Source: a phage
Strand: one strand, 5' to 3'
Assembly: GCA_014686985.1 (NCBI GenBank)
Contig: GCA_014686985.1_3627.1
DNA: 64,000 nt
Made by a program: the position numbers and the translations under genes. Shown piece after piece: positions 8,330 through 63,582 of this stretch; position 1 is the stretch's first letter; every line of letters starts with the position of its first letter. The notes under the pieces are model-generated. The model did not search any database. It was not told where the DNA came from and was given only the letters and a program-made list of their open reading frames with translations.

Positions 8330-8593
8330 ATGAAACGTCTTGACCAGCTCAAACTAGTTCAGTACATGGCTTACAGAATTCTTGAAGTCCAAAAAGGTAG
8401 CAAAAAAGAAGTTTGCGAGAAAGCGTACAAGATCTTTACTCGCAAAAAAGACGATTGGATGCTACGCCAGACTAAAAAGGCTGACATCTTGGGGTACCTG
8501 GAAGAAGAGATCCGGCTTGAAGAACAAGAAGAGATCCGCCGTAGTGAGGCAGATTATCAGGCAGTTTGGGAAAACTGGATGAGCAACAAATAA
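8330..8593 (+). CDS. hypothetical protein (87 aa)
   Basis: ORF track; RBS AAAGAGG; upstream hairpin GGGCCAAAAGGCCC. Confidence 0.6.
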   Translation: MKRLDQLKLVQYMAYRILEVQKGSKKEVCEKAYKIFTRKKDDWMLRQTKKADILGYLEEEIRLEEQEEIRRSEADYQAVWENWMSNK

Positions 8594-9177: not shown

Positions 9178-9202
9178 GGGGCTTAAAGGCCCCTTTCTTT
9201 TT
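9178..9202 (+). terminator. rho-independent terminator at the end of the plus-strand early block
   Basis: hairpin GGGGCTTAAAGGCCCC followed by TTTCTTTTT. Confidence 0.6.
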
Positions 9203-11760
9203 GTCTGCTCTTCTCCTACCATAAACGGCCCTACCCGGCAAGTGGAATAATTGACTAGCCATTAATCCCACACACTGTACAAATATACATATAAAATAAC
9301 TATTGCATAATCTTTCACTGTGTGGTAGCAGGGCCATTTTTACCCGTTTTCTCTCCCAAAAGTGCACGTAATGCCGCTATTGCACAAATTTTAACCTGAT
9401 GCACATCTCCAATATCTTGTCAACAACTAAAAATCTTTATAAGTCATACACTTACACAACATAGAAAGCGTGTCCTACGCGAAAAATCGAGTATAACTAT
9501 GGCCGCCAGATCTCAGAATTCACGTACGCACGCCATTCTATAGCCTGCAAAGTATTTATTCCAACCACAGAATAACGGAATAGTCAATACCTGCATAAAA
9601 TAATTATTCGTGTAAACTGCATAACATAAATCAGCTCAGGTGTCAACATTTTTCGTAAACAGTCCGAAATTATCACGATGAGTTATCATAAACAGAGAAA
9701 TCTTTAGTCGTCTAATGTTTACTGTACATTACTATACTGACTGGAATCATTAGATGACTAAGAGAAAGATAAGAAATAATTAATAATGTGATTATTTTAC
9801 CTGTAACAATAAGGCAACTATGCAAACGAATGGCATGGCGCGACGGAGTCGCGACATAATATAAAAGCAGTAACCATCACCCCCGTGATAGTTTGTCTGC
9901 AAACTATTAATCAGATCATAGTTGCCTTGTATTTAGTTAATCATGACATAACAAGCAAGGCAACTATAGATCTTCTAATAGTTGCCCTGCTTTTATATTA
10001 TGTCATAGAAACACCCGAAGGGGTGACCAAAGGCCACCTGGCATAGCCAGCGAAAGATTATTAACTTGCTAATAGTTATCATGCAAACGAATGGCATGGC
10101 TTATCATTTCCATGTAAATAGTTAGCTATGTAAACTATTGGTCATGTAAACCATTAAGCATGTAAACAGTAAGAGCGTGAACAGTAAAGGGAGTGAATAG
10201 TAATAGCGTGAATAGTGACAGCGTAAACAGTCAGGCATGTCAATTATGTCATATTGTGTCACCATTATGTCTAAAGTGTCATATTGTGTCAGACAAGTTT
10301 TTCTCCTCTTTGTCAAGTGCTGCATGAAAAATTTACAAGCTGGTATGGTAGCATTTTTGCGGCCCTGTTTACATTCAGTGATGTATGTATAATCCTTGTT
10401 GTGTGGGCGTTTAGACGTCTAGACGGTTGGAAGTCCACAGGTCAATATCTAATCTATCGGCTGCTAACTATATCCCACACAAATAGTAAGAAATATGATT
10501 GTTATATGCGTAAACAGTAACTCATGTTATCAATCCCTGTATGTATCGCCAGTGGTGCGCATAATGGGTATTATGTTAAATTGCCCGTAATGATAATGGT
10601 TCTCACAATGATAGGTATTCTCATTCCCCCACACAAAATAGATTGCAAATGTTGTGCCACTATGTGAACGGCCTCACCTATTAATTTGCCTCACTGCCTC
10701 GATATTTGAGAATTGTTATAAGAATGAGAATGATTCCCATTTCGTCCGCCTGGCAGCACTCCTGTAGGTCCTGCAAGGACTCTAGCTGAAAGCTAGACCC
10801 TTCGGGCCTCCCTGTAGGTCAGGTCAAAATCGTGGTAGAATTGGGCCTGTTCAGATATTTCTGGCTGACTCTTCAGGTCTGTGTGGGAAAAGCCAACCTC
10901 TCCGGCGGCGGGGAGGGGGTCAATTAAAAAAAAAATTACGTGGTGTATGAAGCGCTCTTCAGGTAAGGCATATATTATGAGATGAAACCCTCTTCAGGTA
11001 ATGATATTTGTGGGTGTGATATTTGCTGGAAAGCCAGATATGACGGGACTCCCGGCGGGGCAGGGGTAGTACAGACAGGGAAAATATGAGAATGTAGTTG
11101 GGGAAATTGATCAGACAGGTAGAGTATGGAATATGTTACAAGTATGTTAAATATGGAGGTTGAATATCTGTAGGGTTTGTGTGTAAAATCAAAGACTTAA
11201 GGGGTGTTGTGGTATTTTCTATAAATAATTCAAGTTTAATAGGCAATATTTGTCTCTATCCGCTTTGTGTGGTAAACAGATTCAGATTAGATTGGTTTAC
11301 AAGTGTATACATAATATACAAATTAAAGATACAAGAAACCCCCCTCCCCCTTCGGCTACCATTCACCTTTTCCTCTGACTGGTACTTAAACACTTATTCA
11401 GACTCTTCAGGTTATCACCCATATATCATATGGCAGTGACTGGTGTCCTCCGGCCCCTCTTTCGTCACCCGTCCGCTTCGCCATGCTAATGCCATAGCCA
11501 ATGGTTCGGTTGTTCACCCTGTTCACTCAGGTGTATCTCCATACCCCTTCAAACCGAAGAGAACAGAAAACCCGAATTACTCGGTAAAAGAAAAGAGAAG
11601 AACTTAATTTTATCAGGATAGGCAAGAATGTCAAGGCATGACTGCTCACTAAACAAGCAAACAGTCATGTGTGGGAGGTAAGTGATTGTGGTGGTAGGAA
11701 ATTTAGTTGAAAGATGTGTTATAGGTGCTTCCAGCACTTTAGCCTGGCAGCTAATTGTGT
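9203..11760. repeat. non-coding repeat-dense region (several families of short direct and inverted repeats)
   Basis: no convincing ORF on either strand; recurring motifs AGGCAACTAT / ATAGTTGCC, CAAACGAATGGCATGGC (x2), TGTCATATTGTGTCA (x2), CATGTAAA and GTGAATAGT series, CTCTTCAGGT (x4), CCTGTAGGTC (x2). Confidence 0.6.
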
Positions 11761-11761
11761 G

Positions 11762-12043
11762 TCAGTCCAGCGGTTCATCCTCTACTTCACTGAAATCAAT
11801 GTTCATGGTCTCTTCCCAACCATCGATCTCAGCACAAGAGTAGAGATCTTTAGGACTTACTCCCAAAGCCTCAGCAACAGAGTCTATATTTAACACCTCT
11901 GGCAGGTATGATTCATCGAATTCAAGGTAAATCAGGCCACGAGTGTTGTCAGCTCCACCAAATATTTCTATCTTCATGAAATCTCCTCTGGAAATGAGAA
12001 TGTGAACAGGGTTTATATGTTCCAATGCACTGGAATTATGCAC
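11762..12043 (-). CDS. hypothetical acidic protein (93 aa)
   Basis: ORF track; last gene of the minus-strand block. Confidence 0.5.
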   Translation of the reverse strand: MHNSSALEHINPVHILISRGDFMKIEIFGGADNTRGLIYLEFDESYLPEVLNIDSVAEALGVSPKDLYSCAEIDGWEETMNIDFSEVEDEPLD

Positions 12044-12097
12044 GTTTGCCTCTTCAGGCCATGCTTTAGCATGAGGAACCTGTGTGGGCTCGGTGCT

Positions 12098-12511
12098 TCA
12101 TAGTCTACCACCTCTGAACTCTTCGTGCTCAGGCATAATAGAGAACCAGATATCTACGATGTCTTCCCACGTTAGGTCATCAGCCTCAGGATCTACCTGG
12201 AGCGAAGATGGAGAATCTTCAGAATCGAAGTTTTCCTCTTGCACTGGCTCAGTCAAGGGACATATAGTCACTCCTTTGGATGTCTCTTCAGATGCATGTG
12301 TGTTTATCATGTTCCACCCGTGAGTATTCCGGCAACAGCCACTATGGACGTAATGATCATCAGGATCACCACCAAAACCTCTGACAATGTTTTCATTGTG
12401 TATCCCATATTCTCCAAACGATGTGTGGATACTATCACTGGAGCGGCAATGTGTCAACAGAAACGCCGCGAGGGTTTGGTTAAAATCCGAGCGTATGGTG
12501 ATTTGGGTCAA
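12098..12511 (-). CDS. hypothetical protein (137 aa)
   Basis: ORF track; acidic C-terminus; preferred over overlapping plus-strand ORFs because of block orientation. Confidence 0.45.
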   Translation of the reverse strand: MTQITIRSDFNQTLAAFLLTHCRSSDSIHTSFGEYGIHNENIVRGFGGDPDDHYVHSGCCRNTHGWNMINTHASEETSKGVTICPLTEPVQEENFDSEDSPSSLQVDPEADDLTWEDIVDIWFSIMPEHEEFRGGRL

Positions 12512-47246: not shown

Positions 47247-47597
47247 TCAGTAGATGTTTTGTTTAATCTCTATTCCAAACTTTTTAAACGAGTCAGCTGC
47301 AAGCATGAATTTACGAGCCGCTGATGGGTTAGAAGTATGCACGAAAATCTTCACGTTGTCAACTACAGGAGGCTTACCAAATACAAATTTTTCCTCCAAC
47401 ATAGATAGGCAATCGTACCCTTCGAATACCTCTCCAAGGTCGTTGTCCATATGCCACTCAGAAACGCGTCTGTAGAGCTTTCTATTATCGTTAATAAAAT
47501 CTATAAACTCGGAGGAATTCTTTAGCCAAACAGCGTCTTGGAGCCCGTACTTTGACGGATCTCTCAAGTCATCTAGCCACACAATCAACTTCTTCAT
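47247..47597 (-). CDS. hypothetical protein (116 aa), weak receiver-domain-like pattern
   Basis: acidic pair LDDLRD, later MDNDLG, VHTSNP and a distal Lys in CheY-like order; speculative. Confidence 0.45.
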   Translation of the reverse strand: MKKLIVWLDDLRDPSKYGLQDAVWLKNSSEFIDFINDNRKLYRRVSEWHMDNDLGEVFEGYDCLSMLEEKFVFGKPPVVDNVKIFVHTSNPSAARKFMLAADSFKKFGIEIKQNIY

Positions 47598-48529
47598 TGC
47601 ATATAGTTCTCGTTGTGGAAATAGTAATCGAGTATCTCACGGCGTTCCTGCTCCAGGAGGCAGTTCCACACATCCTCTGTGTAATTGCTACGAATGAAGT
47701 TTACCATGCCGTAAAACTCTTCGTCAACACGTTTAAAGATATCATCATCCCAAATCTTCCAAGCTTTACCCCTCATTACGGCCTTCCGTGCCAGATAGTA
47801 TGGAGACTTGATCTTCAGCTGCAGATCATAAGGGTAGTAAGGCTTACGAATCATATACCCTTCGCCCCTTGTTTCTGCAGCTAATTCTTTTGCATAGCTG
47901 AACGGGATTTCACGCACAGTGTGAGGACGTTTTGCACCAAGGTATTTGGCAATCCCATCTAAAGCTGCTTCTGGTAGCATTATTCCAGAATCATTATATC
48001 TGCAACCTATCAAATATGCGCCATGGTCTTCTTGAACAATATGCGGATCTGAAGGGTGACAAATTTCAAACATGAATGTCATGTTTTCATTGCCCATAAC
48101 CTTCTTGATAAGATCTAAATTACCACATTGCTCTTGGATGGTTTCCTTTGCAAGGTTACAATATGGAGAATCAAGAGACCCGGTTGTTGAGAACAATAGT
48201 TCACCTTTATGAGATGATACCACACCGAGGAATCCGTTCTTTTTCTCTACCGCAGTAACAAGTTTACTGTCCGGTAGGTTGGTGGAGTTTTCTCCCAAGT
48301 TAAACACTTTTGTGAAGGGCCATGCCACAACATTCCCTTCATTACCGACAACAATGCCTCGGCACTCCAGCAAACGAGGAGACAAATGCCATAAATTGTT
48401 GTAAAATACTTTTCTGGCATATTTATAGATCTTTAATCCAAGATCTGGGTAATATCTGCTGGTTACAAGACCTTTGTCAACTAGGTCGTCTGCATTAAAA
48501 TACTTCATCATGCGTTCCTCATTTGTCAT
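47594..48529 (-). CDS. RNA ligase-like nucleotidyltransferase
   Basis: motif I EKKNGFLG (Lys nucleophile), motif IV EGYMIRK, motif V LKIKSP; a separate DNA ligase exists at 43839-45122. Confidence 0.55.
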   Translation of the reverse strand: MTNEERMMKYFNADDLVDKGLVTSRYYPDLGLKIYKYARKVFYNNLWHLSPRLLECRGIVVGNEGNVVAWPFTKVFNLGENSTNLPDSKLVTAVEKKNGFLGVVSSHKGELLFSTTGSLDSPYCNLAKETIQEQCGNLDLIKKVMGNENMTFMFEICHPSDPHIVQEDHGAYLIGCRYNDSGIMLPEAALDGIAKYLGAKRPHTVREIPFSYAKELAAETRGEGYMIRKPYYPYDLQLKIKSPYYLARKAVMRGKAWKIWDDDIFKRVDEEFYGMVNFIRSNYTEDVWNCLLEQERREILDYYFHNENYMQ

Positions 48530-48573
48530 TTTGTCAGTCTATCCTGCCACACAAATAACCTGGTGTCAACACT

Positions 48574-48601
48574 TGAAATTAACAAAACAGTTGGGTATAC
48601 T
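48574..48601 (+). promoter_or_regulatory. sigma70-like promoter
   Basis: TTGAAA 48574-48579, 16-nt spacer, TATACT 48596-48601. Confidence 0.5.
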
Positions 48602-48629
48602 ATCGTTGAAATTAAAACGGAGGATTACT

Positions 48630-49040
48630 ATGTCTAAAATGCTATATATCGTGCGTGGTCTACCAGGGTCTGGCAAATCAACACTGGCAAATGCGCTATC
48701 TTTAGAAGGTCTGTATCCACATTTTGAGAACGACATGTTCTGGTACGACGATGATGGAAATTATAACTGGGATGCAAGTAAAGTAACACTTGCAGCAAAA
48801 TGGTGCAAAGATAACGTAGAAGATATGATGCGTATGGGATACGACCGTATCGTGGTAAGTAATACGTTTACAAAAGAAAAATATGTGCAAGAATATATTG
48901 ACATGGCGATCAGTCATGGGTATAGTTATACCGTGATCGTGGTTGAAAACCGCCATGGTAATAAAAGCATTCATGATGTTCCAGACAGGGTTGTGGATCG
49001 TATGGAACGCCAGCTTAAAAACTGCATTAAACTTAAATGA
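48630..49040 (+). CDS. P-loop kinase (polynucleotide kinase-like)
   Basis: ATG 48630 after GGAGG RBS; Walker A GLPGSGKST; 136 aa. Confidence 0.6.
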   Translation: MSKMLYIVRGLPGSGKSTLANALSLEGLYPHFENDMFWYDDDGNYNWDASKVTLAAKWCKDNVEDMMRMGYDRIVVSNTFTKEKYVQEYIDMAISHGYSYTVIVVENRHGNKSIHDVPDRVVDRMERQLKNCIKLK

Positions 49041-49047
49041 GGAATGT

Positions 49048-49602
49048 ATGAAATACTTTGTAACAAGCGACACACACTTTCTCCACCAGCGGGTCATGGA
49101 GTTCGATTCCTGTCAAAAACACAGATCTCAGTATGATCACAATCTTGACAGTATGAATGCGGGAATCATCACCAAGTGGAACTCTGTTGTGTCACCTGCA
49201 GACACTGTGTTTCACTTGGGAGATATTGCGTGCACTAATGATAAGAATATCAACAAATTGCTCCCAGATGTTCTAAATATGTTGAACGGACATATTATTC
49301 TTGTTCGTGGTAACCATGACACAAGGACGACTGTCAGAATTATGAAAGAGTTCGGTCATGAGGTTGTAGATTATTACGAGCTTCGCCACAACAAGAATTT
49401 GATCTGTATGAGCCATTACCAGTTTGCAAAGTGGAACAGAAAGCCTCACGGATCAGTCCAACTGTTCGGTCATGCTCACGGAACCACACAGCAGTTGTTT
49501 GGCAGGCAGTTTGATGTCGGTTGGGATGTGTGGGTGAGACTCTTACCATTAGAAGAGGCATACCGTATTGCAATGAGTCTTGCTATTGACAGCGGGGAGT
49601 AA
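49048..49602 (+). CDS. calcineurin-like metallophosphoesterase
   Basis: ATG 49048 after GAGG; motifs SDTHF (DxH), GDIACT (GDxx), GNHD. Confidence 0.7.
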   Translation: MKYFVTSDTHFLHQRVMEFDSCQKHRSQYDHNLDSMNAGIITKWNSVVSPADTVFHLGDIACTNDKNINKLLPDVLNMLNGHIILVRGNHDTRTTVRIMKEFGHEVVDYYELRHNKNLICMSHYQFAKWNRKPHGSVQLFGHAHGTTQQLFGRQFDVGWDVWVRLLPLEEAYRIAMSLAIDSGE

Positions 49603-49649
49603 TCCCTGCTATTTTAAAGAAAATTGCCACACAAGGAGAATCAGGAGAT

Positions 49650-50000
49650 ATGAAAGATGGGGATAAGCTGCTATATCTTAAAGTCCCCCTTGAAATACTG
49701 TCTATGTCAAAAGTTTTGAATGACACAACTGGGGAGGTTGTTGTTCTTGACTTATATGACAAGATCGTATACTGCTACCTGCACAACTGGTATAAGCTTG
49801 GAGGAAATTCACGCTTCACACCCAGCACAAGGAAAATTGCAGCAGATGTTGGGATAAAGAAAACAAAAGCAGCAGCGTGCGTTAAAACTTTAGAATGTGC
49901 AGGAGTGGTTGAAATATCCACACAAGGGAGAGGTAAAAGATGTACATTTTCCAAAGTTTTGCCACCAGAAGAGGTTATTCGAATGTCAACAACTGGTTAG
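49650..50000 (+). CDS. hypothetical DNA-binding protein (winged-helix-like), candidate iteron-binding initiator/regulator
   Basis: helix-turn-helix-like TPSTRKIAADVGIKKTKAAACVKTLECAGVV; immediately upstream of four tandem dyad repeats. Confidence 0.5.
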   Translation: MKDGDKLLYLKVPLEILSMSKVLNDTTGEVVVLDLYDKIVYCYLHNWYKLGGNSRFTPSTRKIAADVGIKKTKAAACVKTLECAGVVEISTQGRGKRCTFSKVLPPEEVIRMSTTG

Positions 50001-50072
50001 ACCAGTAAAAACTTAAATATCTGTACTATAAGGATTCGTATGTTTTATGTTCGCTCTGGAACAGAGGTCAGT

Positions 50073-50158
50073 AACTGTCCGTGATACGGACACTACTGTC
50101 CGTCACGCGGACACATCTGCCCGTAATACGGACACTAACTGTCCGTGATACGGACACA
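50073..50158. repeat. four tandem 21-22-bp iterons, each containing dyad GTCCGT-N3-ACGGAC
   Basis: AACTGTCCGTGATACGGACACT (50073), ACTGTCCGTCACGCGGACACAT (50095), ATCTGCCCGTAATACGGACACT (50117), AACTGTCCGTGATACGGACACA (50137). Confidence 0.8.
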
Positions 50159-50280
50159 TAAAGAATATAACTAAAATAACTAAATAATAAAAATAAAAGA
50201 TCTAGTACTTATGGTACTAAGTACATATACTTAACTTATGTAGAATATACTAGATCCTAAGTACCATGTTTTAAAATTAT
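50159..50280. other. AT-rich region with nested palindromes (candidate DNA unwinding element)
   Basis: very AT-rich tract; inverted repeats GATCTAGTA...TACTAGATC and GTACTTATGGTAC. Confidence 0.5.
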
Positions 50281-50640
50281 TACTTACTATAGGTAGTGTC
50301 GGCCCTTCATTGGCACTCGCCTACGAGGGGCGAGATGCCGGGCCTCCTTGGTGCACACAATAACAGAAGTGCATACATGCAGGTCTGTTAACATGTGTGG
50401 GAGCGAAGCGATAGCGCAGGCCAAAGGCCGAGCACTGATGTGGACCACCGACGAAAGCTTGCCAGCGCCGTAAGGAGTCGGTTGAGAGTCTCCCGCGCGA
50501 GCTTGGATGAAGTTTATGTGTGGAAACTGACAAGAAGGCCCCTAAATCGCTCCACAGCTATATAAACTATACCAGGTAATGCAATCGCACCAGTTTGATA
50601 GAAAAGCTCGTTACAAAGTGATACAGTGAGTTTTTCTATA
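50281..50640 (+). ncRNA. GC-rich structured non-coding island A (candidate ncRNA/structured leader)
   Basis: locally GC-rich versus AT-rich surroundings, many short complementary segments, no plus-strand ORF of 60 aa or more; strand assignment by context only. Confidence 0.3.
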
Positions 50641-50659
50641 ACTTGAAGAGGAGGCAGCT

Positions 50660-51238
50660 ATGGGTTCACGCAAAGATGACCGTGAAAAGATTGCAAAACG
50701 TTATCAGAATGAAGAACAGATGGAGAAAACTTTCAAGTGGAAGCCTGGTTTCCAGCGTAATCATTCTAACGCTCGTGATCGTAAGCATCCGGATAAGTGG
50801 CTAACACCGCCAAATGATGGCATGCAGGTTGGTGATGAGAAGGAGATGTCACCTGGAAAAGATGGCAACTACATTCGCACTAAGGAAGCTGGTCCAAAGG
50901 ATGACAGCTATCTTGTAGATAAGGTTCTTAATGGTATTGATGTAGATGTTGACACTGCACGAAACCTTTTTCTTGGTTGGTATCGTACAGGGTTTTTCGA
51001 CATCAAGGCTATTCGTCGTGTTTGCGATATTAAAAAGTCTGCCTATGATGATGACTCCCTACATCGCACTCTGAGACAATACTCAGAGAGATACGGTCAT
51101 CCAGTTATCACTCTTGACGATATTAACGAAGTGATGTATCATGCAGAGGTTGTTGCAGGTAGATTCGGTGATGCATATCTAGATATCCTTTCTGCAAAGG
51201 ATGAGGTAATGTTAAATAAGATTTACTATGAACGCTGA
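50660..51238 (+). CDS. hypothetical protein (192 aa)
   Basis: ORF track; strong RBS GAAGAGGAGG. Confidence 0.65.
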   Translation: MGSRKDDREKIAKRYQNEEQMEKTFKWKPGFQRNHSNARDRKHPDKWLTPPNDGMQVGDEKEMSPGKDGNYIRTKEAGPKDDSYLVDKVLNGIDVDVDTARNLFLGWYRTGFFDIKAIRRVCDIKKSAYDDDSLHRTLRQYSERYGHPVITLDDINEVMYHAEVVAGRFGDAYLDILSAKDEVMLNKIYYER

Positions 51239-51248
51239 GGGGTGCTTA

Positions 51249-51437
51249 ATGAACAATCCGGTAGCAAAGAACTGTACTAAGTTTAACAAGTCTGCGATTC
51301 ACACTGACAGGAAAAAGGGCTGGTCTCCTGACATTGACGAGGAGCTTGAGAGTTACTTTGAAGACCTGGTCACTAATGCAGATGAGGTTGCGATTAAAGA
51401 ATACGCAGACAGGAAGGATAAGGCCGGAATCTGTTGA
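51249..51437 (+). CDS. hypothetical protein (62 aa)
   Basis: ATG 51249 after GAGGGG RBS. Confidence 0.5.
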   Translation: MNNPVAKNCTKFNKSAIHTDRKKGWSPDIDEELESYFEDLVTNADEVAIKEYADRKDKAGIC

Positions 51438-51513
51438 CAAAAATAGTGTTACCTGATAAGATCTGCAATATGATGTGATGCAATTTTAACTTACGAGGTC
51501 TACAGGTAATGCT

Positions 51514-51756
51514 ATGTTTAAGGTTAAGCTCGTTTTTCGTTCCATGAATGAGGATTATTTAGAAGATGAAGGTGAATTTCGTGCACTGGATGATGCAATA
51601 GATTTTGCCAACGACTTAGCTTGTATGAATACAGGTTATGGGCTATGTTGTTGGGATGGTGGTGTTCAGATCGGTGATAGCAAGATCTTCTACTTCTACC
51701 CTGAGCCTGATAACAAACAAATTAAGTATGTTTTATTTATTTGTGCTTTACAATGA
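51514..51756 (+). CDS. hypothetical protein (80 aa)
   Basis: ORF track. Confidence 0.55.
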   Translation: MFKVKLVFRSMNEDYLEDEGEFRALDDAIDFANDLACMNTGYGLCCWDGGVQIGDSKIFYFYPEPDNKQIKYVLFICALQ

Positions 51757-51789
51757 GGTTGTTTTCGTGTATCATGATGAATATCCAAT

Positions 51790-52075
51790 TTAAAGATGAA
51801 TTTGATGGCTTTATCTCTGGATGCTTTGAAACAGGGTTCGGAGAAGGCTGAGTTCCCCTTAGAGGGCTTGATAGTGCACCACACTTAAAATGGTAGGGGC
51901 AGCCAGCACATGACGATGTGACCCCAGCCAACCTGTAACAAGGTCGAGCCGAAGCGCGGGTAATAGGCCTCTGGTAGCCCACTTGTTGGGTCTTGCTGGT
52001 CCAGGACGCTGGACAAGTCGCAGGGAATACCACCCTGCGGCGAACTTGACAATCAGTATTTGCTATGATAAAATC
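51790..52075 (+). ncRNA. GC-rich structured non-coding island B (candidate ncRNA/structured leader)
   Basis: GC-rich, no plus-strand ORF, abundant local complementarity; precedes the AT-hook protein gene and the tRNA array. Confidence 0.3.
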
Positions 52076-52102
52076 CACCTATCACGTGATAATGGAGGAA
52101 AC

Positions 52103-52441
52103 ATGGCGGATACAACTAAAAAGCGTCGCCGTAGAGGCAGACCTCTGAAAGAGGAGTCCAACGCCATTCAGCTAGAGAAGAACATCCTCGATATGAAGGA
52201 ATCTTTTATAGCGATGGTTCCAGAAGCTCACAAAGTTTTAAGAGAGCTGATGTTGGACCCGAAAACCAAACAAAATATTCGTCAAAGCATTGCAGAGTAT
52301 GTTCTTGATAAGGCAGACCGAATGCAGGAAGAATATGATGAGATGTTTGGTGAAGAGGAAGAGGTGGTAGTGGAAGAGGCTGAAAAACCAGCACCTTTTA
52401 TGCCATTTACTACAGAAATACAGCCTGTTAGCAATAGCTAA
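52103..52441 (+). CDS. AT-hook-containing DNA-binding protein (112 aa)
   Basis: ATG 52103 after GGAGG; N-terminal KKRRRRGRPLK (RGRP AT-hook core); acidic C-terminus. Confidence 0.6.
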   Translation: MADTTKKRRRRGRPLKEESNAIQLEKNILDMKESFIAMVPEAHKVLRELMLDPKTKQNIRQSIAEYVLDKADRMQEEYDEMFGEEEEVVVEEAEKPAPFMPFTTEIQPVSNS

Positions 52442-52450
52442 AATATTTTC

Positions 52451-52479
52451 TTGACAAACTTTGCTTAACAGTGTAATAT
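52451..52479 (+). promoter_or_regulatory. sigma70-like promoter of the tRNA array
   Basis: TTGACA 52451-52456, 17-nt spacer, TAATAT 52474-52479. Confidence 0.6.
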
Positions 52480-52537
52480 TGTAAACATGGTCTCCCACCT
52501 TTTCTGGCGGCTAAGGTGTAAAAGAAAGCCACCCAGT

Positions 52538-52612
52538 GCCCTGTTAGCTTAGTGGATAAAGCAGCGGCCTTCTAAGCCGTTGACACTGGTTCGAGTCCAG
52601 TACGGGGTGCCA
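52538..52612 (+). tRNA. tRNA-Arg(UCU): tRNA-Arg (anticodon UCU)
   Basis: hand-folded cloverleaf: acceptor GCCCTGT/ACGGGGT, D-arm GCTT...AAGC, anticodon loop CTTCTAA, T-arm ACTGG-TTCGAGT-CCAGT, CCA encoded. Confidence 0.8.
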
Positions 52613-52616
52613 AATT

Positions 52617-52703
52617 GGGGAGTTATCCCGTAGAGGTAGCGGTGTAGACTGTAAATCTATTGTCATTGCGACTCGGGTGGTTCGACTCCACCACTCCCCA
52701 CCA
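52617..52703 (+). tRNA. tRNA-Tyr(GUA): tRNA-Tyr (anticodon GUA), class II
   Basis: acceptor GGGGAGT/ACTCCCC, anticodon loop CTGTAAA, long variable arm, T-arm GGTGG-TTCGACT-CCACC, CCA encoded. Confidence 0.75.
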
Positions 52704-52817
52704 AATTTATATTTTTAGATGCATAAATAATACAGATAATGGCATTGATATTTATCGTCGTTTATACTAGTCACTAACTGCTCGAAAATCAGTGTCATTA
52801 TCAGTATAATTTATAAA

Positions 52818-52908
52818 GGAGGGTAGGGAGCAATGGTGCTCAAGCGGTCTTGAAAACCGTCCCGTTGAGGATGACTCGATGATGGTTCGATTCCATTACT
52901 CTCCGCCA
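52818..52908 (+). tRNA. tRNA-Ser(UGA): tRNA-Ser (anticodon UGA), class II
   Basis: acceptor GGAGGGT/ACTCTCC, anticodon stem GCGGT/ACCGT with loop CTTGAAA, long variable arm, T-loop TTCGATT, CCA encoded. Confidence 0.7.
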
Positions 52909-53006
52909 CATTGTTGACCTTGTAATTAAGCGAAAGCCGGAAGCAGAACCGGATTATCAAATGTTACAGTCGTCATCGCCGACTAGCAACATGGTCAACA
53001 TACTGA

Positions 53007-53105
53007 GCTAGGTAAGCCCTTTGGCAAGGGCGAGGATTTTTAATCCTGAAAATAGACGAGGTAGTCGTTGAATACATAGGTGGTTCGATTCCATCGCCTA
53101 GCACC
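53007..53105 (+). tRNA. atypical tRNA-like element (99 nt; anticodon arm irregular, about 30-nt variable region)
   Basis: intact acceptor GCTAGGT/GCCTAGC, D-arm GCCC...GGGC and T-arm GGTGG-TTCGATT-CCATC; AGGA-TTTTTAA-TCCT arm would give anticodon UUU (Lys) but with a mismatch and an over-long variable region. Confidence 0.45.
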
Positions 53106-53110
53106 TTTTT

Positions 53111-53186
53111 GCTGATGTAGCACAATCGGTAGTGCAATTGATTTGTAATCAATAGGTTGTAGGTTCAAGTCCTGCCATCAGCACCA
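53111..53186 (+). tRNA. tRNA-Thr(UGU): tRNA-Thr (anticodon UGU)
   Basis: acceptor GCTGATG/CATCAGC, D-arm GCAC...GTGC, anticodon stem ATTGA/TCAAT with loop TTTGTAA, T-loop TTCAAGT, CCA encoded. Confidence 0.8.
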
Positions 53187-53187
53187 A

Positions 53188-53263
53188 GGCCCTGTAGCTG
53201 GAAGGTTCAAGCAAGCGACTCATAATCGCCAGACGGTGGTTCAATTCCACCCAGGGCCACCAA
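53188..53263 (+). tRNA. tRNA-Met/Ile2(CAU): tRNA with anticodon CAU (Met or lysidine-modified Ile2)
   Basis: acceptor GGCCCTG/CAGGGCC, anticodon loop CTCATAA, T-arm GGTGG-TTCAATT-CCACC, CCA encoded. Confidence 0.75.
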
Positions 53264-53273
53264 ATAGTAAATA

Positions 53274-53350
53274 CTCCGCGTAGCTCAGCTTGGTAGAGCG
53301 CCTGATTTGGGATCAGGAGGTCGAGTGTTCGAATCACTCCGTGGAGACCA
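53274..53350 (+). tRNA. tRNA-Pro(UGG): tRNA-Pro (anticodon UGG)
   Basis: acceptor CTCCGCG/CGTGGAG, D-arm GCTC...GAGC, anticodon stem CCTGA/TCAGG with loop TTTGGGA, T-arm GAGTG-TTCGAAT-CACTC, CCA encoded. Confidence 0.8.
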
Positions 53351-63123: not shown

Positions 63124-63582
63124 ATGCTAAAGGTTAAATGTCAAACAAGGTTCAACCTAAAGCGTTTAGATCGCTTCTACAAAGAACTTGTGAGACTTGA
63201 AAGTAAAACAATAACCTACGGCTTTTATGACGAACCTCACCCGTCAGGCTTAAATATGGCAACATTGGCAGCCATTCACAACTTCGGTTGGAACGGGCTG
63301 CCTGTTCGCAATTTCATGGAGACAGCTTTTGCATTTCACAGCACTCAACTACAGACCTTGACAGAAAAATTGTTGAGAGCTATGGCTAGGGGATCAAGTG
63401 CAGAGGCTATTCTTAAGCAGATGGGGGACACAGGGGCCAAAGCTATCCAGTTTGTTATTGAGGCTGGGCAGTTTAGTAATCCTACTGTTAGCGAGCAGTG
63501 GGCACAAGAGAAAGGCTTCAACGAGGCTATGCGGCATTACGATGTGCTGCTTGAATCTGCAACCTTTAAAATCGGACAGTAA
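63124..63582 (+). CDS. hypothetical protein (152 aa)
   Basis: ATG 63124 after GTGAGGG. Confidence 0.55.
   Translation: MLKVKCQTRFNLKRLDRFYKELVRLESKTITYGFYDEPHPSGLNMATLAAIHNFGWNGLPVRNFMETAFAFHSTQLQTLTEKLLRAMARGSSAEAILKQMGDTGAKAIQFVIEAGQFSNPTVSEQWAQEKGFNEAMRHYDVLLESATFKIGQ

What the first reader, a model, noticed from the sequence alone, without database searches (positions are those of the whole stretch)
50281..50640. GC-rich structured non-coding island A between the origin-like region and the next gene
Seen in sequence: about 280 nt that are clearly GC-richer than the flanking DNA, with no plus-strand ORF of 60 codons or more and many short self-complementary segments (for example GGCCGAGC...GCTTGCCAGCGCC, GAGTCGG...CCCGCGCGAGC). 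The only track ORF here (minus 50321-50533) has an implausible composition. Inference: a structured RNA (stable small RNA, ribozyme-like element or long structured leader) or a protein-binding DNA element. I could not match it to a known family by eye.
Basis: seen in the sequence. Interest (0 to 1): 0.55.

Follow-up and report, generated by a model that had tools for sequence, protein, structure and literature searches.

The report
Conserved structured RNA beside phage origin
The GC-rich island is a real, strongly conserved, non-coding folded element (most likely RNA) that matches no described RNA family, always lies next to the repeats and AT-rich stretch of a replication-origin-like cassette in rV5-like E. 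coli phages, and recurs in small phage-like E. coli plasmids, so it probably acts in replication initiation.

Summary
Window 50296-50545 has GC 0.60 against about 0.40 in the flanks, and it contains no conserved reading frame. The window is an rV5-like phage (Vequintavirus), and the island is present in all ~119 GenBank relatives.

Two parts evolve as slowly as non-synonymous codon positions: a 5' hairpin (50301-50344) and a 106-nt three-way-junction core (50394-50499). Their pi values are 0.006 and 0.022, against 0.09-0.11 at third codon positions.

No Rfam family matches. A covariance model of the core finds one copy in the window. It also finds homologues in 13-kb E. coli plasmids that carry capsid and tail genes and look like phage satellites.

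Comparing phage with plasmid sequences shows compensatory base changes in several helices. Invariant U·G pairs, GNRA/UUCG loops and a plus-strand-only RNA folding signal favour a plus-strand RNA.

In every replicon the order is the same: variable Rep gene and iterons, then an AT-rich stretch, then the conserved element. My best reading (about 0.45) is a constant, structured arm of an iteron-type origin that acts in priming or replisome loading. The rivals are a folded ssDNA priming signal, a free-standing stable RNA, and a leader for the downstream gene. Expression has not been tested.

The parts
49650..50000 (+). Gene for a 116-aa winged-helix replication-initiator-like protein, the variable part of the cassette
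   Evidence: PHROG 12838 'replication initiation protein', E 2.5e-80, plus weaker hits to other initiator families. Pfam DUF6945/HTH_36 just below cut-off. Replaced by a distant 143-aa relative in L004.
50077..50155 (.). Four iteron-like repeats GTCCGTnnnnCGGAC, spaced 21-22 bp
   Evidence: Ten strand-matches against 0.24 expected. Annotated as repeat_region in phage pangalan. L004 has different repeats (TGCATCAGAT) at the same place.
50160..50292 (.). AT-rich stretch, a presumed DNA-unwinding element, containing the inverted repeat GATCTAGTA...TACTAGATC
   Evidence: GC 0.315 at 50100-50299; sequence. Not alignable with L004, d = 0.54.
50301..50344 (+). HP1: a very stable 5' hairpin. GGCCC/GGGCC closes GGCACUCGCCU/GGGGCGAG-A-UGCC.
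   Evidence: -28.1 kcal/mol, z = -2.8. pi = 0.006; d to L004 = 0.045. Two G-C to U-A double changes in plasmid CP020521.
50346..50393 (+). Variable hairpin. It carries CACACA (50354-50359), which can pair with the 5' strand of P1.
   Evidence: An 18-nt deletion in five of the fetched relatives, and a further 1-nt deletion in MaxTheCat. pi = 0.091, near neutral. The alternative pairing appears in the MFE.
50394..50499 (+). Core three-way junction. P1 is 50394-50403 with 50490-50499. The H2 hairpin is 50416-50433. The junction motif AUGUGGA is 50438-50444. P3 is 50447-50452 with 50477-50482. The P3 loop holds CC-GNAA-GG at 50468-50475. The junction motif GAGAGU is 50484-50489.
   Evidence: pi = 0.022; d to L004 = 0.075. 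Model R1 gives 142.8 bits here, 112.8 in L004, 60-72 in type-A plasmids and 16-21 in two type-B plasmids. 96.6% of cells are paired; 7 pairs have double changes, three of them in P3. RNA plus strand z = -1.80, against -0.15 for the minus strand and +0.13 with DNA parameters.
50500..50541 (+). Variable linker S3, with a second UGUGUGG at 50517-50523
   Evidence: pi = 0.106, near neutral. Replaced by other hairpin modules in the plasmids.
50542..50592 (+). 3' domain: CCUAAAU, then small hairpins (GCU-CCAC-AGC; UAUA-UAAAC-UAUA; GGU..GCAAUCGC..ACC)
   Evidence: Alignable with all plasmids through CCUAAAU...AAC...GCAAUUGC. Some compensatory changes (GCU/AGC, GUC/GAC, GCC/GGC) and some breaks. pi = 0.096. 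Weakly supported.
50598..50639 (+). Conserved long stem-loop AUAGAAAAGCUC...GAGUUUUUCUAU (A-tract/U-tract arms), 20 nt upstream of the start codon. It resembles a terminator or attenuator.
   Evidence: MFE (z = -2.08 for 50540-50645). pi = 0.026 for 50593-50659. Nearly identical in L004. Not found in the plasmids.
50647..51238 (+). Ribosome-binding site (GAGGAGG) and the downstream 192-aa gene of unknown function
   Evidence: ORF 50660..51238. PHROG 12226, unknown function. No Pfam hit. Found only in this genus and L004. No homologue in the plasmids.

Best explanation
The island is the constant, structured arm of an iteron-type replication-origin cassette.

The cassette reads: a small winged-helix Rep gene and its iterons (both interchangeable), an AT-rich unwinding stretch, then this element on the plus strand. 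The element consists of a very stable hairpin (HP1) and a 106-nt three-way-junction core closed by a U·G-rich helix (P1).

Proposed mechanism (inferred): early transcription from the promoter-like site upstream of rep runs through the iterons and the AT-rich stretch and produces the folded RNA at the edge of the opened DNA. There it helps turn Rep-dependent opening into DNA synthesis. It could do this by forming or positioning a primer or R-loop, or by recruiting the phage primase-helicase.

The same core in 13-kb capsid- and tail-gene plasmids with their own Rep and iterons suggests these elements use the same factor, possibly the helper phage's replisome.

Shown: conservation, non-coding status, strand-specific structure, constant linkage and polarity relative to iterons and the AT-rich stretch.

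Inferred: that it is RNA, that the iteron region is an active origin, and the step at which the element acts.
For: 1. Selection. HP1 and the core have pi 0.006 and 0.022, against 0.09-0.11 at third codon positions. In L004 the Rep gene, iterons and AT-rich stretch are replaced (d 0.52-0.61), but HP1 and the core are kept (d 0.045 and 0.075).

2. Linkage. The order iterons, AT-rich stretch, core, in the same polarity, holds in the window, in L004 and in nine plasmids. Their iterons all differ, and their Rep proteins belong to related initiator families.

3. Structure. Phage versus plasmids shows compensatory changes. P3 has three of six pairs with double changes and is 100% paired. HP1 has two double changes. 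Type-B plasmids carry an unrelated 8-bp helix at the P3 position.

4. Strand and chemistry. P1 has three invariant U·G pairs. Single changes go to G·U (L004, CP074841). A UG insertion in one plasmid is matched by a CG insertion on the other strand. GUAA and GGAA alternate as GNRA loops, and UUCG loops occur in neighbouring modules. Only the plus-strand RNA fold beats shuffles.

5. Transcription. A sigma70-like site (49586-49615) lies upstream of rep, and no plus-strand terminator was found between it and the island.

6. Distribution. The core is restricted to this phage genus and the phage-related plasmids, as expected if the partner is phage-encoded.
Against: - No expression data exist, and no conserved promoter lies immediately upstream. 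The TACTAT box is lost in Aya and L004.
- That the iteron region is an active origin rests only on analogy. The rV5 genome paper could not place the origin (PMC3606486).
- The covariation comes from few independent lineages: the phage, L004 and two plasmid types. The alignment scored was fitted to the model.
- Within the genus there is almost no covariation: 1 pair, covariation term 0.06.
- In the plasmids the Rep gene is downstream, and sigma70-like promoters and minus-strand terminator-like hairpins flank the element, so the direction of transcription there is uncertain.
- Linkage to the iterons could be inherited rather than functional.
Confidence: 0.45

Rival explanations
1. The element works as folded single-stranded DNA. 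After Rep opens the AT-rich stretch, the displaced plus strand folds into hairpins that act as a single-strand initiation signal, a priming or helicase-loading site for the phage primase-helicase or for host primosome proteins. A primer made there would be extended leftwards through the origin.
For: The position and polarity are the same as in the best explanation. The plus strand to the right of the opened region is the lagging-strand template of a rightward fork, which is where such signals act (established knowledge of RSF1010 ssiA/ssiB, the G4 complementary-strand origin and the R1 G-site). HP1 folds equally well with DNA parameters, z = -3.45. The core contains GCGAAGC (50403-50409), C-GAAA-G and CC-GTAA-GG; from my own knowledge these resemble very stable DNA mini-hairpins. 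Restriction to the phage and phage-related plasmids fits recognition by a phage enzyme.
Against: P1 would have three T·G mismatches in ten pairs. With DNA parameters the core is no more stable than shuffles, z = +0.13. Changes that go to G·U, and UUCG loops, are typical of RNA. The slowly evolving part is about 200 nt, counting HP1 and the core, which is longer than the known signals I recall.
Confidence: 0.2
2. It is a free-standing, trans-acting stable RNA, processed from the early transcript. It would bind or titrate a phage or host protein, for example as a regulator, decoy or anti-defence RNA. Its place next to the iterons would be historical.
For: GC-rich islands in AT-rich phage DNA are typical of stable RNA genes. 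A second conserved GC-rich island (51796-52045) and a tRNA cluster lie just downstream. Conserved single-stranded junction motifs (AUGUGGA, GAGAGU) suit recognition by a partner. Sharing with satellite-like plasmids could reflect mimicry of a helper RNA.
Against: No promoter or terminator pair delimits it. The linkage to iterons and the AT-rich stretch holds across three unrelated iteron sets and several Rep types, which is hard to explain by chance. No partner protein is identifiable.
Confidence: 0.2
3. It is a long structured leader, riboswitch-like or protein-responsive, that controls the downstream 192-aa gene through the conserved terminator-like stem-loop at 50598-50639.
For: The stem-loop and ribosome-binding site evolve slowly, pi = 0.026, and lie 20 nt upstream of the start codon. 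CACACA (50354-50359) can pair with the 5' strand of P1, giving two exclusive folds. The island and the 192-aa gene have the same taxonomic range.
Against: The plasmids have the core but no homologue of the 192-aa gene and no such stem-loop. There, sigma70-like promoters lie between the element and the next ORF. No riboswitch family matches. The 100 nt between the core and the stem-loop evolve nearly neutrally.
Confidence: 0.08
4. It is a double-stranded DNA site bound by a protein, for example a packaging (pac) site shared by helper and satellite, or a GC clamp that limits unwinding.
For: It is shared between the phage and plasmids that appear to lack a terminase. From my own knowledge, GC-rich segments flank the AT-rich region in some iteron plasmids such as RK2 and pPS10. 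TGTGTGG is over-represented in the window, 30 against 8.2 expected.
Against: A duplex site gives no reason for complementarity to be kept through compensatory and wobble changes on one strand. A clamp would constrain composition, not sequence at pi = 0.006-0.022.
Confidence: 0.04
5. It encodes one or more small proteins, as annotated in some GenBank records (31-aa and 56-aa ORFs).
For: The 56-codon plus-strand frame (50395..50565) is open in all relatives examined, and the indels inside it are multiples of three. Some phage records annotate it as a hypothetical protein.
Against: Variable sites fall 15/22/17 on codon positions 1/2/3, and nearly all changes alter the amino acid. There is no family hit. 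It starts with GTG, and I saw no ribosome-binding site upstream. The other frames are broken in relatives, and 1-nt indels occur in ECML-10 and MaxTheCat. Open frames of this length are expected at 60% GC.
Confidence: 0.03

Closest known systems
ColE1-type RNA II pre-primer
   Same: It is a several-hundred-nucleotide, highly folded transcript made across an origin. Its folding decides whether it primes DNA synthesis, and alternative pairings act as a switch.
   Different: ColE1 origins have no Rep protein, iterons or AT-rich unwinding element. There is no sequence or Rfam similarity. No antisense partner is evident. Priming by this element is not shown.
Single-strand initiation signals (RSF1010 ssiA/ssiB, phage G4 complementary-strand origin, plasmid R1 G-site)
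   Same: They are strand-specific hairpin structures placed beside the iterons and AT-rich region of an origin. They are recognised by a replicon-specific or host primase, and they can be shared as cassettes between replicons.
   Different: Those are DNA structures, shorter as I recall. Here U·G-rich P1, UUCG/GNRA loops and the folding statistics favour RNA. No primase recognition has been tested.
Lambdoid phage origins (variable O protein and iterons, conserved AT-rich and right arm) and the GC-rich segment of iteron plasmid origins (RK2 oriV, pPS10)
   Same: The initiator and iterons diversify while the neighbouring arm of the origin stays constant. A GC-rich block abuts the AT-rich stretch.
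   Different: The constant arm here is about 200 nt, with covarying helices. This points to a folded single strand rather than duplex composition or host-factor sites.
Large or stable phage non-coding RNAs (T4 species 1 and 2 RNAs; GOLLD and ROOL near tRNA genes)
   Same: They are GC-rich, structured, of unknown function, encoded near phage tRNA clusters and conserved within a phage group.
   Different: No similarity to GOLLD or ROOL was found in Rfam. This element is much smaller and is tied to an iteron cassette rather than to the tRNA genes.

Membership tests
Any Rfam 15 family (riboswitches, ribozymes, RNase P, tmRNA, 6S, SRP, GOLLD/ROOL, Y RNA and others) | Score at or above the family's gathering threshold in a covariance-model scan | tested here: not met
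   Only tRNAs pass in the whole window. At E up to 10 in 50000-52800, the only hits touching the island are rli43 (20.7 against 100 bits, mostly over the AT-rich stretch) and UPD-PK2 (17.4 against 32 bits).
tRNA / tmRNA | Cloverleaf or tmRNA detected by ARAGORN | tested here: not met
   All seven tRNA calls lie at 52538-53350; none falls in 50281-50640.
Protein-coding gene | Reading frame kept in relatives, with excess change at third codon positions | tested here: not met
   Both long minus-strand frames, 50321..50533 and 50287..50448, carry premature stops in some relatives. 1-nt indels occur in ECML-10 and MaxTheCat. The one frame that stays open has variable sites 15/22/17 by codon position. 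No Pfam hit.
Iteron-type replication origin (as the context of the element) | Initiator gene next to an array of direct repeats, followed by an AT-rich stretch | tested here: met
   Rep-like PHROG 12838. Four repeats at 50077-50155. GC 0.315 at 50100-50299. The same layout with other repeats occurs in L004 and the plasmids.
Iteron-type replication origin (as the context of the element) | Demonstrated initiation of DNA synthesis at the site | not testable with these tools
   The rV5 genome paper used skew analysis and did not define an origin (PMC3606486).
ColE1-like primer RNA | Transcript starting at a dedicated promoter and forming a persistent hybrid that RNase H cuts at the origin, with antisense RNA I control | not tested
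   No conserved promoter lies immediately upstream. No RNA I-like antisense unit was seen. Hybrid formation cannot be tested computationally.
Single-strand initiation (ssi) signal | Stable hairpins in single-stranded DNA on the strand that serves as template for the primer | tested here: inconclusive
   HP1 is stable as DNA (z = -3.45), but the core is not (z = +0.13). The polarity is compatible. Enzyme recognition is untestable here.
Riboswitch or attenuator leader | Conserved aptamer directly coupled to an expression platform upstream of the regulated gene in all members | tested here: not met
   The plasmid members lack both the stem-loop and the 192-aa gene, and have promoters after the element. 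The linker between the core and the stem-loop is nearly neutral.
Type III toxin-antitoxin RNA (ToxI-like) | Tandem near-identical repeats of about 36 nt upstream of an endoribonuclease toxin gene | tested here: not met
   The modules that begin with UGUGUGGG differ in sequence and length. The downstream protein has no family assignment.
Structured RNA in general | Helices kept by compensatory changes in independent lineages | tested here: met
   7 of 27 pairs have double changes (1 of 500 shuffles reaches this). 96.6% of cells are paired, against 34-49% when partners are slid. HP1 has two double changes. Caveat: there are few lineages, and the alignment was fitted to the model.

The most novel reading that the evidence does not exclude
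The core is a helper-specific replication signal, RNA or folded DNA, recognised by the rV5-type primase-helicase. The 13-kb plasmids would be an undescribed family of plasmid-borne phage satellites: they have their own capsid, neck and tape-measure genes and their own Rep and iterons for maintenance, but no terminase. They would carry a copy of the signal to capture the helper's replisome on infection.
Probability: 0.2. Interest if true: 0.8.

Novelty: new variant of a known kind. Interest (0 to 1): 0.6.

Why it matters
The replication origin of rV5-like phages has never been defined, although these phages are widely used for typing and biocontrol of E. coli O157 and other strains. This element gives a concrete, testable candidate for the origin and for a structured nucleic-acid step in its firing.

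It also adds a conserved RNA family that no database describes. Every genome record whose annotation I read either leaves it blank or labels it as hypothetical proteins.

Its presence in small capsid- and tail-gene plasmids of clinical and animal E. coli is the first sequence link between those plasmids and a lytic phage group. If they are satellites, this element is probably the point at which they exploit the helper.

Tried and rejected
- Rfam at gathering and at permissive thresholds found nothing relevant. ARAGORN found nothing in the island.
- Exact-pattern scans for distant homologues gave little. IMG/VR with an 18-mer gave one true relative and one chance hit inside a GC-rich gene; a 16-mer gave 43 hits, nearly all chance. 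Metagenome and GTDB scans with a 20-mer returned only close rV5-like contigs and chance hits.
- tblastn with the neighbouring Rep and 192-aa proteins found the same ~119 phages and nothing more distant. IMG/VR gave one locus.
- Model R1 found nothing in 16 IMG/VR loci that hold RNA-ligase homologues, and no second copy in the window.
- RNAalifold within the genus gave a covariation term of 0.06, which is uninformative because the constrained parts are invariant. Part of its predicted structure is contradicted by the plasmid comparison, which supports CCGAC/GUCGG instead of GCUUGCC with GGUUGAGAGU.
- MAFFT misaligned P1 and P3 between phage and plasmids, so I used model-based alignment instead.
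- Coding, hammerhead-like (CUGAUG is not conserved; most relatives have CUAAUG), SRP-like and RNase P-like readings were considered and dropped.
- A sigma70 promoter at the 5' edge (TACTAT) or before the core (TGtTAACAT) was rejected because neither is conserved in Aya or L004.
- Literature searches on rV5/Vequintavirus with satellite, non-coding RNA or origin found nothing about this element.

Full report
**Identity of the window and check of the observation**

The 700 bases around the finding are 98-100% identical to rV5-like E. coli myoviruses of the genus Vequintavirus. The closest are phage PDX and several 'Campylobacter phage' records flagged as unverified. 119 GenBank phage records hold the region.

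GC content rises to 0.60 at 50300-50499, against 0.32-0.41 on either side. As RNA, the plus strand of 50285-50560 folds to -103.9 kcal/mol, z = -2.95, with 0 of 200 shuffles as stable. The minus strand gives z = -2.41.

**Context**

Upstream on the plus strand lie genes for a polynucleotide kinase, a phosphoesterase and a 116-aa winged-helix protein (49650-50000). This last protein matches a PHROG annotated as replication initiation protein (E 2.5e-80) and, more weakly, other initiator families.

Next come four repeats GTCCGTnnnnCGGAC at 50077-50155, then an AT-rich stretch to about 50292, then the island. After the island are a conserved stem-loop (50598-50639), a ribosome-binding site and a 192-aa gene of unknown function. 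A tRNA cluster starts at 52538.

A sigma70-like site precedes the rep-like gene (49586-49615). The scan found no plus-strand terminator between it and the island. None of the public annotations I read marks an RNA here. Some-aa and 56-aa hypothetical proteins.

**Not a known RNA and not coding**

Rfam gives only tRNAs at gathering thresholds. At E up to 10 nothing credible falls in the island.

Among 22 distinct variants, both long minus-strand frames carry premature stops in several relatives. 1-nt indels occur in ECML-10 and MaxTheCat. One plus-strand frame (50395..50565) stays open. However, its variable sites fall 15/22/17 on codon positions 1/2/3, and almost every change alters the residue. 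No protein family matches. I reject coding.

**Selection**

I aligned 49000-51240 from eight genus members and from the more distant IMG/VR contig L004.

| Region | pi within the genus | Distance to L004 |
|---|---|---|
| Third codon positions of the three flanking genes | 0.092-0.106 | 0.23-0.30 where homologous (phosphoesterase and gp192) |
| First and second codon positions | 0.023-0.027 | 0.065-0.083 where homologous (phosphoesterase and gp192) |
| 5' hairpin HP1 (50301-50344) | 0.006 | 0.045 |
| Core (50394-50499) | 0.022 | 0.075 |
| Stem-loop plus ribosome-binding site | 0.026 | 0.090 |
| Variable hairpin (50346-50393) | 0.091 | 0.298 |
| Linker S3 (50500-50541) | 0.106 | 0.286 |
| 3' domain (50542-50592) | 0.096 | 0.392 |

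HP1 and the core are therefore as constrained as amino-acid-changing positions. The variable hairpin, linker and 3' domain evolve at about the neutral rate.

In L004 the rep gene, the repeats and the AT-rich stretch are effectively replaced (d 0.52-0.61). L004 has a 143-aa distant relative of the initiator and different repeats (TGCATCAGAT). The replacement ends exactly at HP1.

**Homologues outside the phages**

Pattern scans of IMG/VR, metagenomes and GTDB genomes found only close relatives or chance hits.

BLAST against complete E. coli genomes and PLSDB found patches of about 85% identity in small circular plasmids of 13.2-13.7 kb. One 39.6-kb record holds three copies.

These plasmids encode:
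- a major head protein;
- a neck protein 48% identical to one encoded at window 63211-63552;
- a tape-measure protein about 25% identical to Vequintavirus ones;
- an O-like replication initiator.

No terminase or portal was recognised. They look like phage satellites, but this is not shown, and I found no paper describing them.

In all nine plasmids examined, the element lies in a 2.3-2.9-kb non-coding region. It follows plasmid-specific direct repeats and an AT-rich stretch (CTAATAGATAAAG...), in the same polarity as in the phage.

**Structure**

The plasmids supply the divergence that the phage genus lacks. RNAalifold within the genus gave a covariation term of only 0.06.

- **HP1.** It recurs in plasmid CP020521 with two G-C to U-A double changes.
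- **P1.** The core is closed by helix P1, UGUGUGGGAG with CUCCCGCGCG, which has three invariant U·G pairs. Single changes give G·U in L004 and CP074841. One plasmid has an extra UG on the 5' strand matched by an extra CG on the 3' strand.
- **P3.** ACCGAC pairs with GUCGGU in the phage, and GCUGCC with GGCAGC in type-A plasmids. That gives three double changes, with G·U intermediates in L004 and Aya. Type-B plasmids have an unrelated 8-bp helix (GUCCGGAU with AUCCGGAC) at the same place.
- **P3 loop.** It holds CC-GNAA-GG, where GUAA and GGAA alternate.
- **Junctions.** The motifs AUGUGGA and GAGAGU/GGAGU are conserved in most members of all classes; two type-B plasmids have a diverged 3' junction.

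A covariance model built from 12 phage cores with this structure scores as follows:

| Source | Score |
|---|---|
| Window | 142.8 bits (one copy only) |
| L004 | 112.8 bits |
| Type-A plasmids | 60-72 bits (E about 1e-11 to 1e-13) |
| Two type-B plasmids | 16-21 bits |

It found nothing in 16 other phage loci.

On the resulting alignment 96.6% of cells are paired, against 34-49% when partners are slid. Seven of 27 pairs have changes on both sides; 1 of 500 shuffles reaches this. Two caveats apply. The changes come from few lineages, and the alignment was fitted to the model.

**Strand and chemistry**

The U·G pairs, and the changes to G·U, would be C·A mismatches on the minus strand.

| Fold of the core | z-score |
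|---|---|
| Plus-strand RNA | -1.80 |
| Minus-strand RNA | -0.15 |
| Plus strand, DNA parameters | +0.13 |

HP1 is stable on either strand and as DNA. GNRA loops occur in the core, and UUCG loops occur in neighbouring hairpin modules of the plasmids and of the phage's large non-coding region. These points favour a plus-strand RNA, at about 0.6-0.65. They do not exclude the displaced plus DNA strand.

**Interpretation**

The most informative fact is the architecture. Three kinds of replicon have different initiators and different iterons, yet all keep the order iterons, AT-rich stretch, element, with the element conserved while its neighbours are swapped. This is how the constant arm of an origin behaves in lambdoid phages and iteron plasmids (established knowledge).

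I therefore read the island as a structured accessory of an iteron-type origin. It would act after Rep-dependent opening, most likely as the transcript made by early read-through: primer or R-loop formation, or recruitment of the phage primase-helicase. Confidence is 0.45.

The rivals are:
- the same role played by folded single-stranded DNA, an ssi-like signal (0.2);
- a free-standing stable RNA whose linkage to the iterons is historical (0.2);
- a leader controlling the 192-aa gene through the 50598-50639 stem-loop (0.08). This is weakened because the plasmids lack that gene and stem-loop and have promoters after the element;
- a duplex protein site such as pac (0.04);
- small proteins (0.03).

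The mechanism is inferred. Nothing here shows expression, origin activity or a partner.

**Comparison with known systems and novelty**

In function the element resembles ColE1 RNA II, or the ssi signals of RSF1010, G4 and R1. In layout it resembles lambdoid and iteron-plasmid origins. It is not a member of any of these by sequence or by their defining features (see the membership table).

The rV5 genome paper did not locate an origin and does not mention this element (PMC3606486).

I rate it a new variant of a known kind: an origin-associated structured nucleic acid, represented by a sequence family not yet described. Interest is 0.6. The main reasons are the link to satellite-like plasmids and the chance to define the origin of a much-used phage group.

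Noticed in passing
window 51796-52045: A second GC-rich (about 0.53) non-coding island. It is 90.7% identical in the distant relative L004 and 93-97% within the genus. It has no Rfam hit and is absent from the plasmids. A strong sigma70-like promoter (TTGACA-17-TAAAAT) follows directly at 52046-52074. It may be another structured RNA.
   Followed up: partly
window 9200-11750: About 2.5 kb with no long ORF. It holds several sets of direct repeats (catgtaaa..., gtgaatagt..., tgtcatattgtgtca), sigma70-like promoters on both strands, and TGTGTGGG/CCCACACA inverted pairs that could close RNA domains (for example 10400 with 10481). A three-hairpin module at 10757-10815 (GGUCC-UGCA-GGAC, CUAGCU-GAAA-GCUAG, CCC-UUCG-GGG) recurs with compensatory changes in the plasmids. 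The rV5 paper marks a 'non-coding' box, which may be this region.
   Followed up: partly
L072-L080 (E. coli plasmids NZ_CP020521, NZ_CP178698, NZ_CP035869, CP148565, NZ_CP043822, NZ_AP045055, NZ_JBUCKS010000006, NZ_CP074841, CP134895): Circular plasmids of 13.2-13.7 kb (one 39.6-kb record has three copies of the element). They encode a major head protein, a neck protein, a tape-measure protein, a baseplate-like protein and an O-like Rep with plasmid-specific iterons, but no recognisable terminase or portal. About 20% of each is non-coding hairpin modules. They look like an undescribed family of plasmid-borne phage satellites related to rV5-like phages.
   Followed up: partly
window, whole; clusters at 9268-12428 and 47577-50523: The heptamer TGTGTGG occurs 30 times against 8.2 expected; no shuffle reaches 30. 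It often lies just downstream of -10-like boxes or as one arm of TGTGTGGG/CCCACACA pairs. It is also the 5' strand of helix P1 in the island and is repeated before successive hairpin modules in the plasmids.
   Followed up: partly
window 50354-50359 with 50394-50399: CACACA upstream of the core can pair with UGUGUG, the 5' strand of P1. This gives a fold that excludes P1. The plasmids have CCCACA upstream of their UGUGGG. A conformational switch is possible but untested.
   Followed up: no
L072 10884-10934 (plus strand, antisense to the Rep gene) and L073 about 8515-8565 (minus strand); window 9975-10057 (minus strand): A second type of three-hairpin module (CUGGC-UUA-GCCAG, GUGAC-CUACU-GUCAC, CCC-UUCG-GGU) is shared between the phage's large non-coding region and positions antisense to plasmid coding genes.
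   Followed up: no
window 53007-53105: ARAGORN calls a 99-nt tRNA-like gene with a four-base anticodon (atcc). Public records annotate it variously as tRNA-OTHER, tRNA-Lys or Asp|Gly.
   Followed up: no
window 46477-49602: An RNA-repair-like set lies just upstream of the origin-like cassette: a SIR2-family gene and an RnlA-like RNA ligase on the minus strand, and a polynucleotide kinase/phosphatase and a metallophosphoesterase on the plus strand.
   Followed up: no
GenBank MG0656xx records (H1, H2, H4-H6 and others): Eighteen records named 'Campylobacter phage' are 91-100% identical to this E. coli Vequintavirus. The one I opened is flagged UNVERIFIED. The host label is probably wrong.
   Followed up: no
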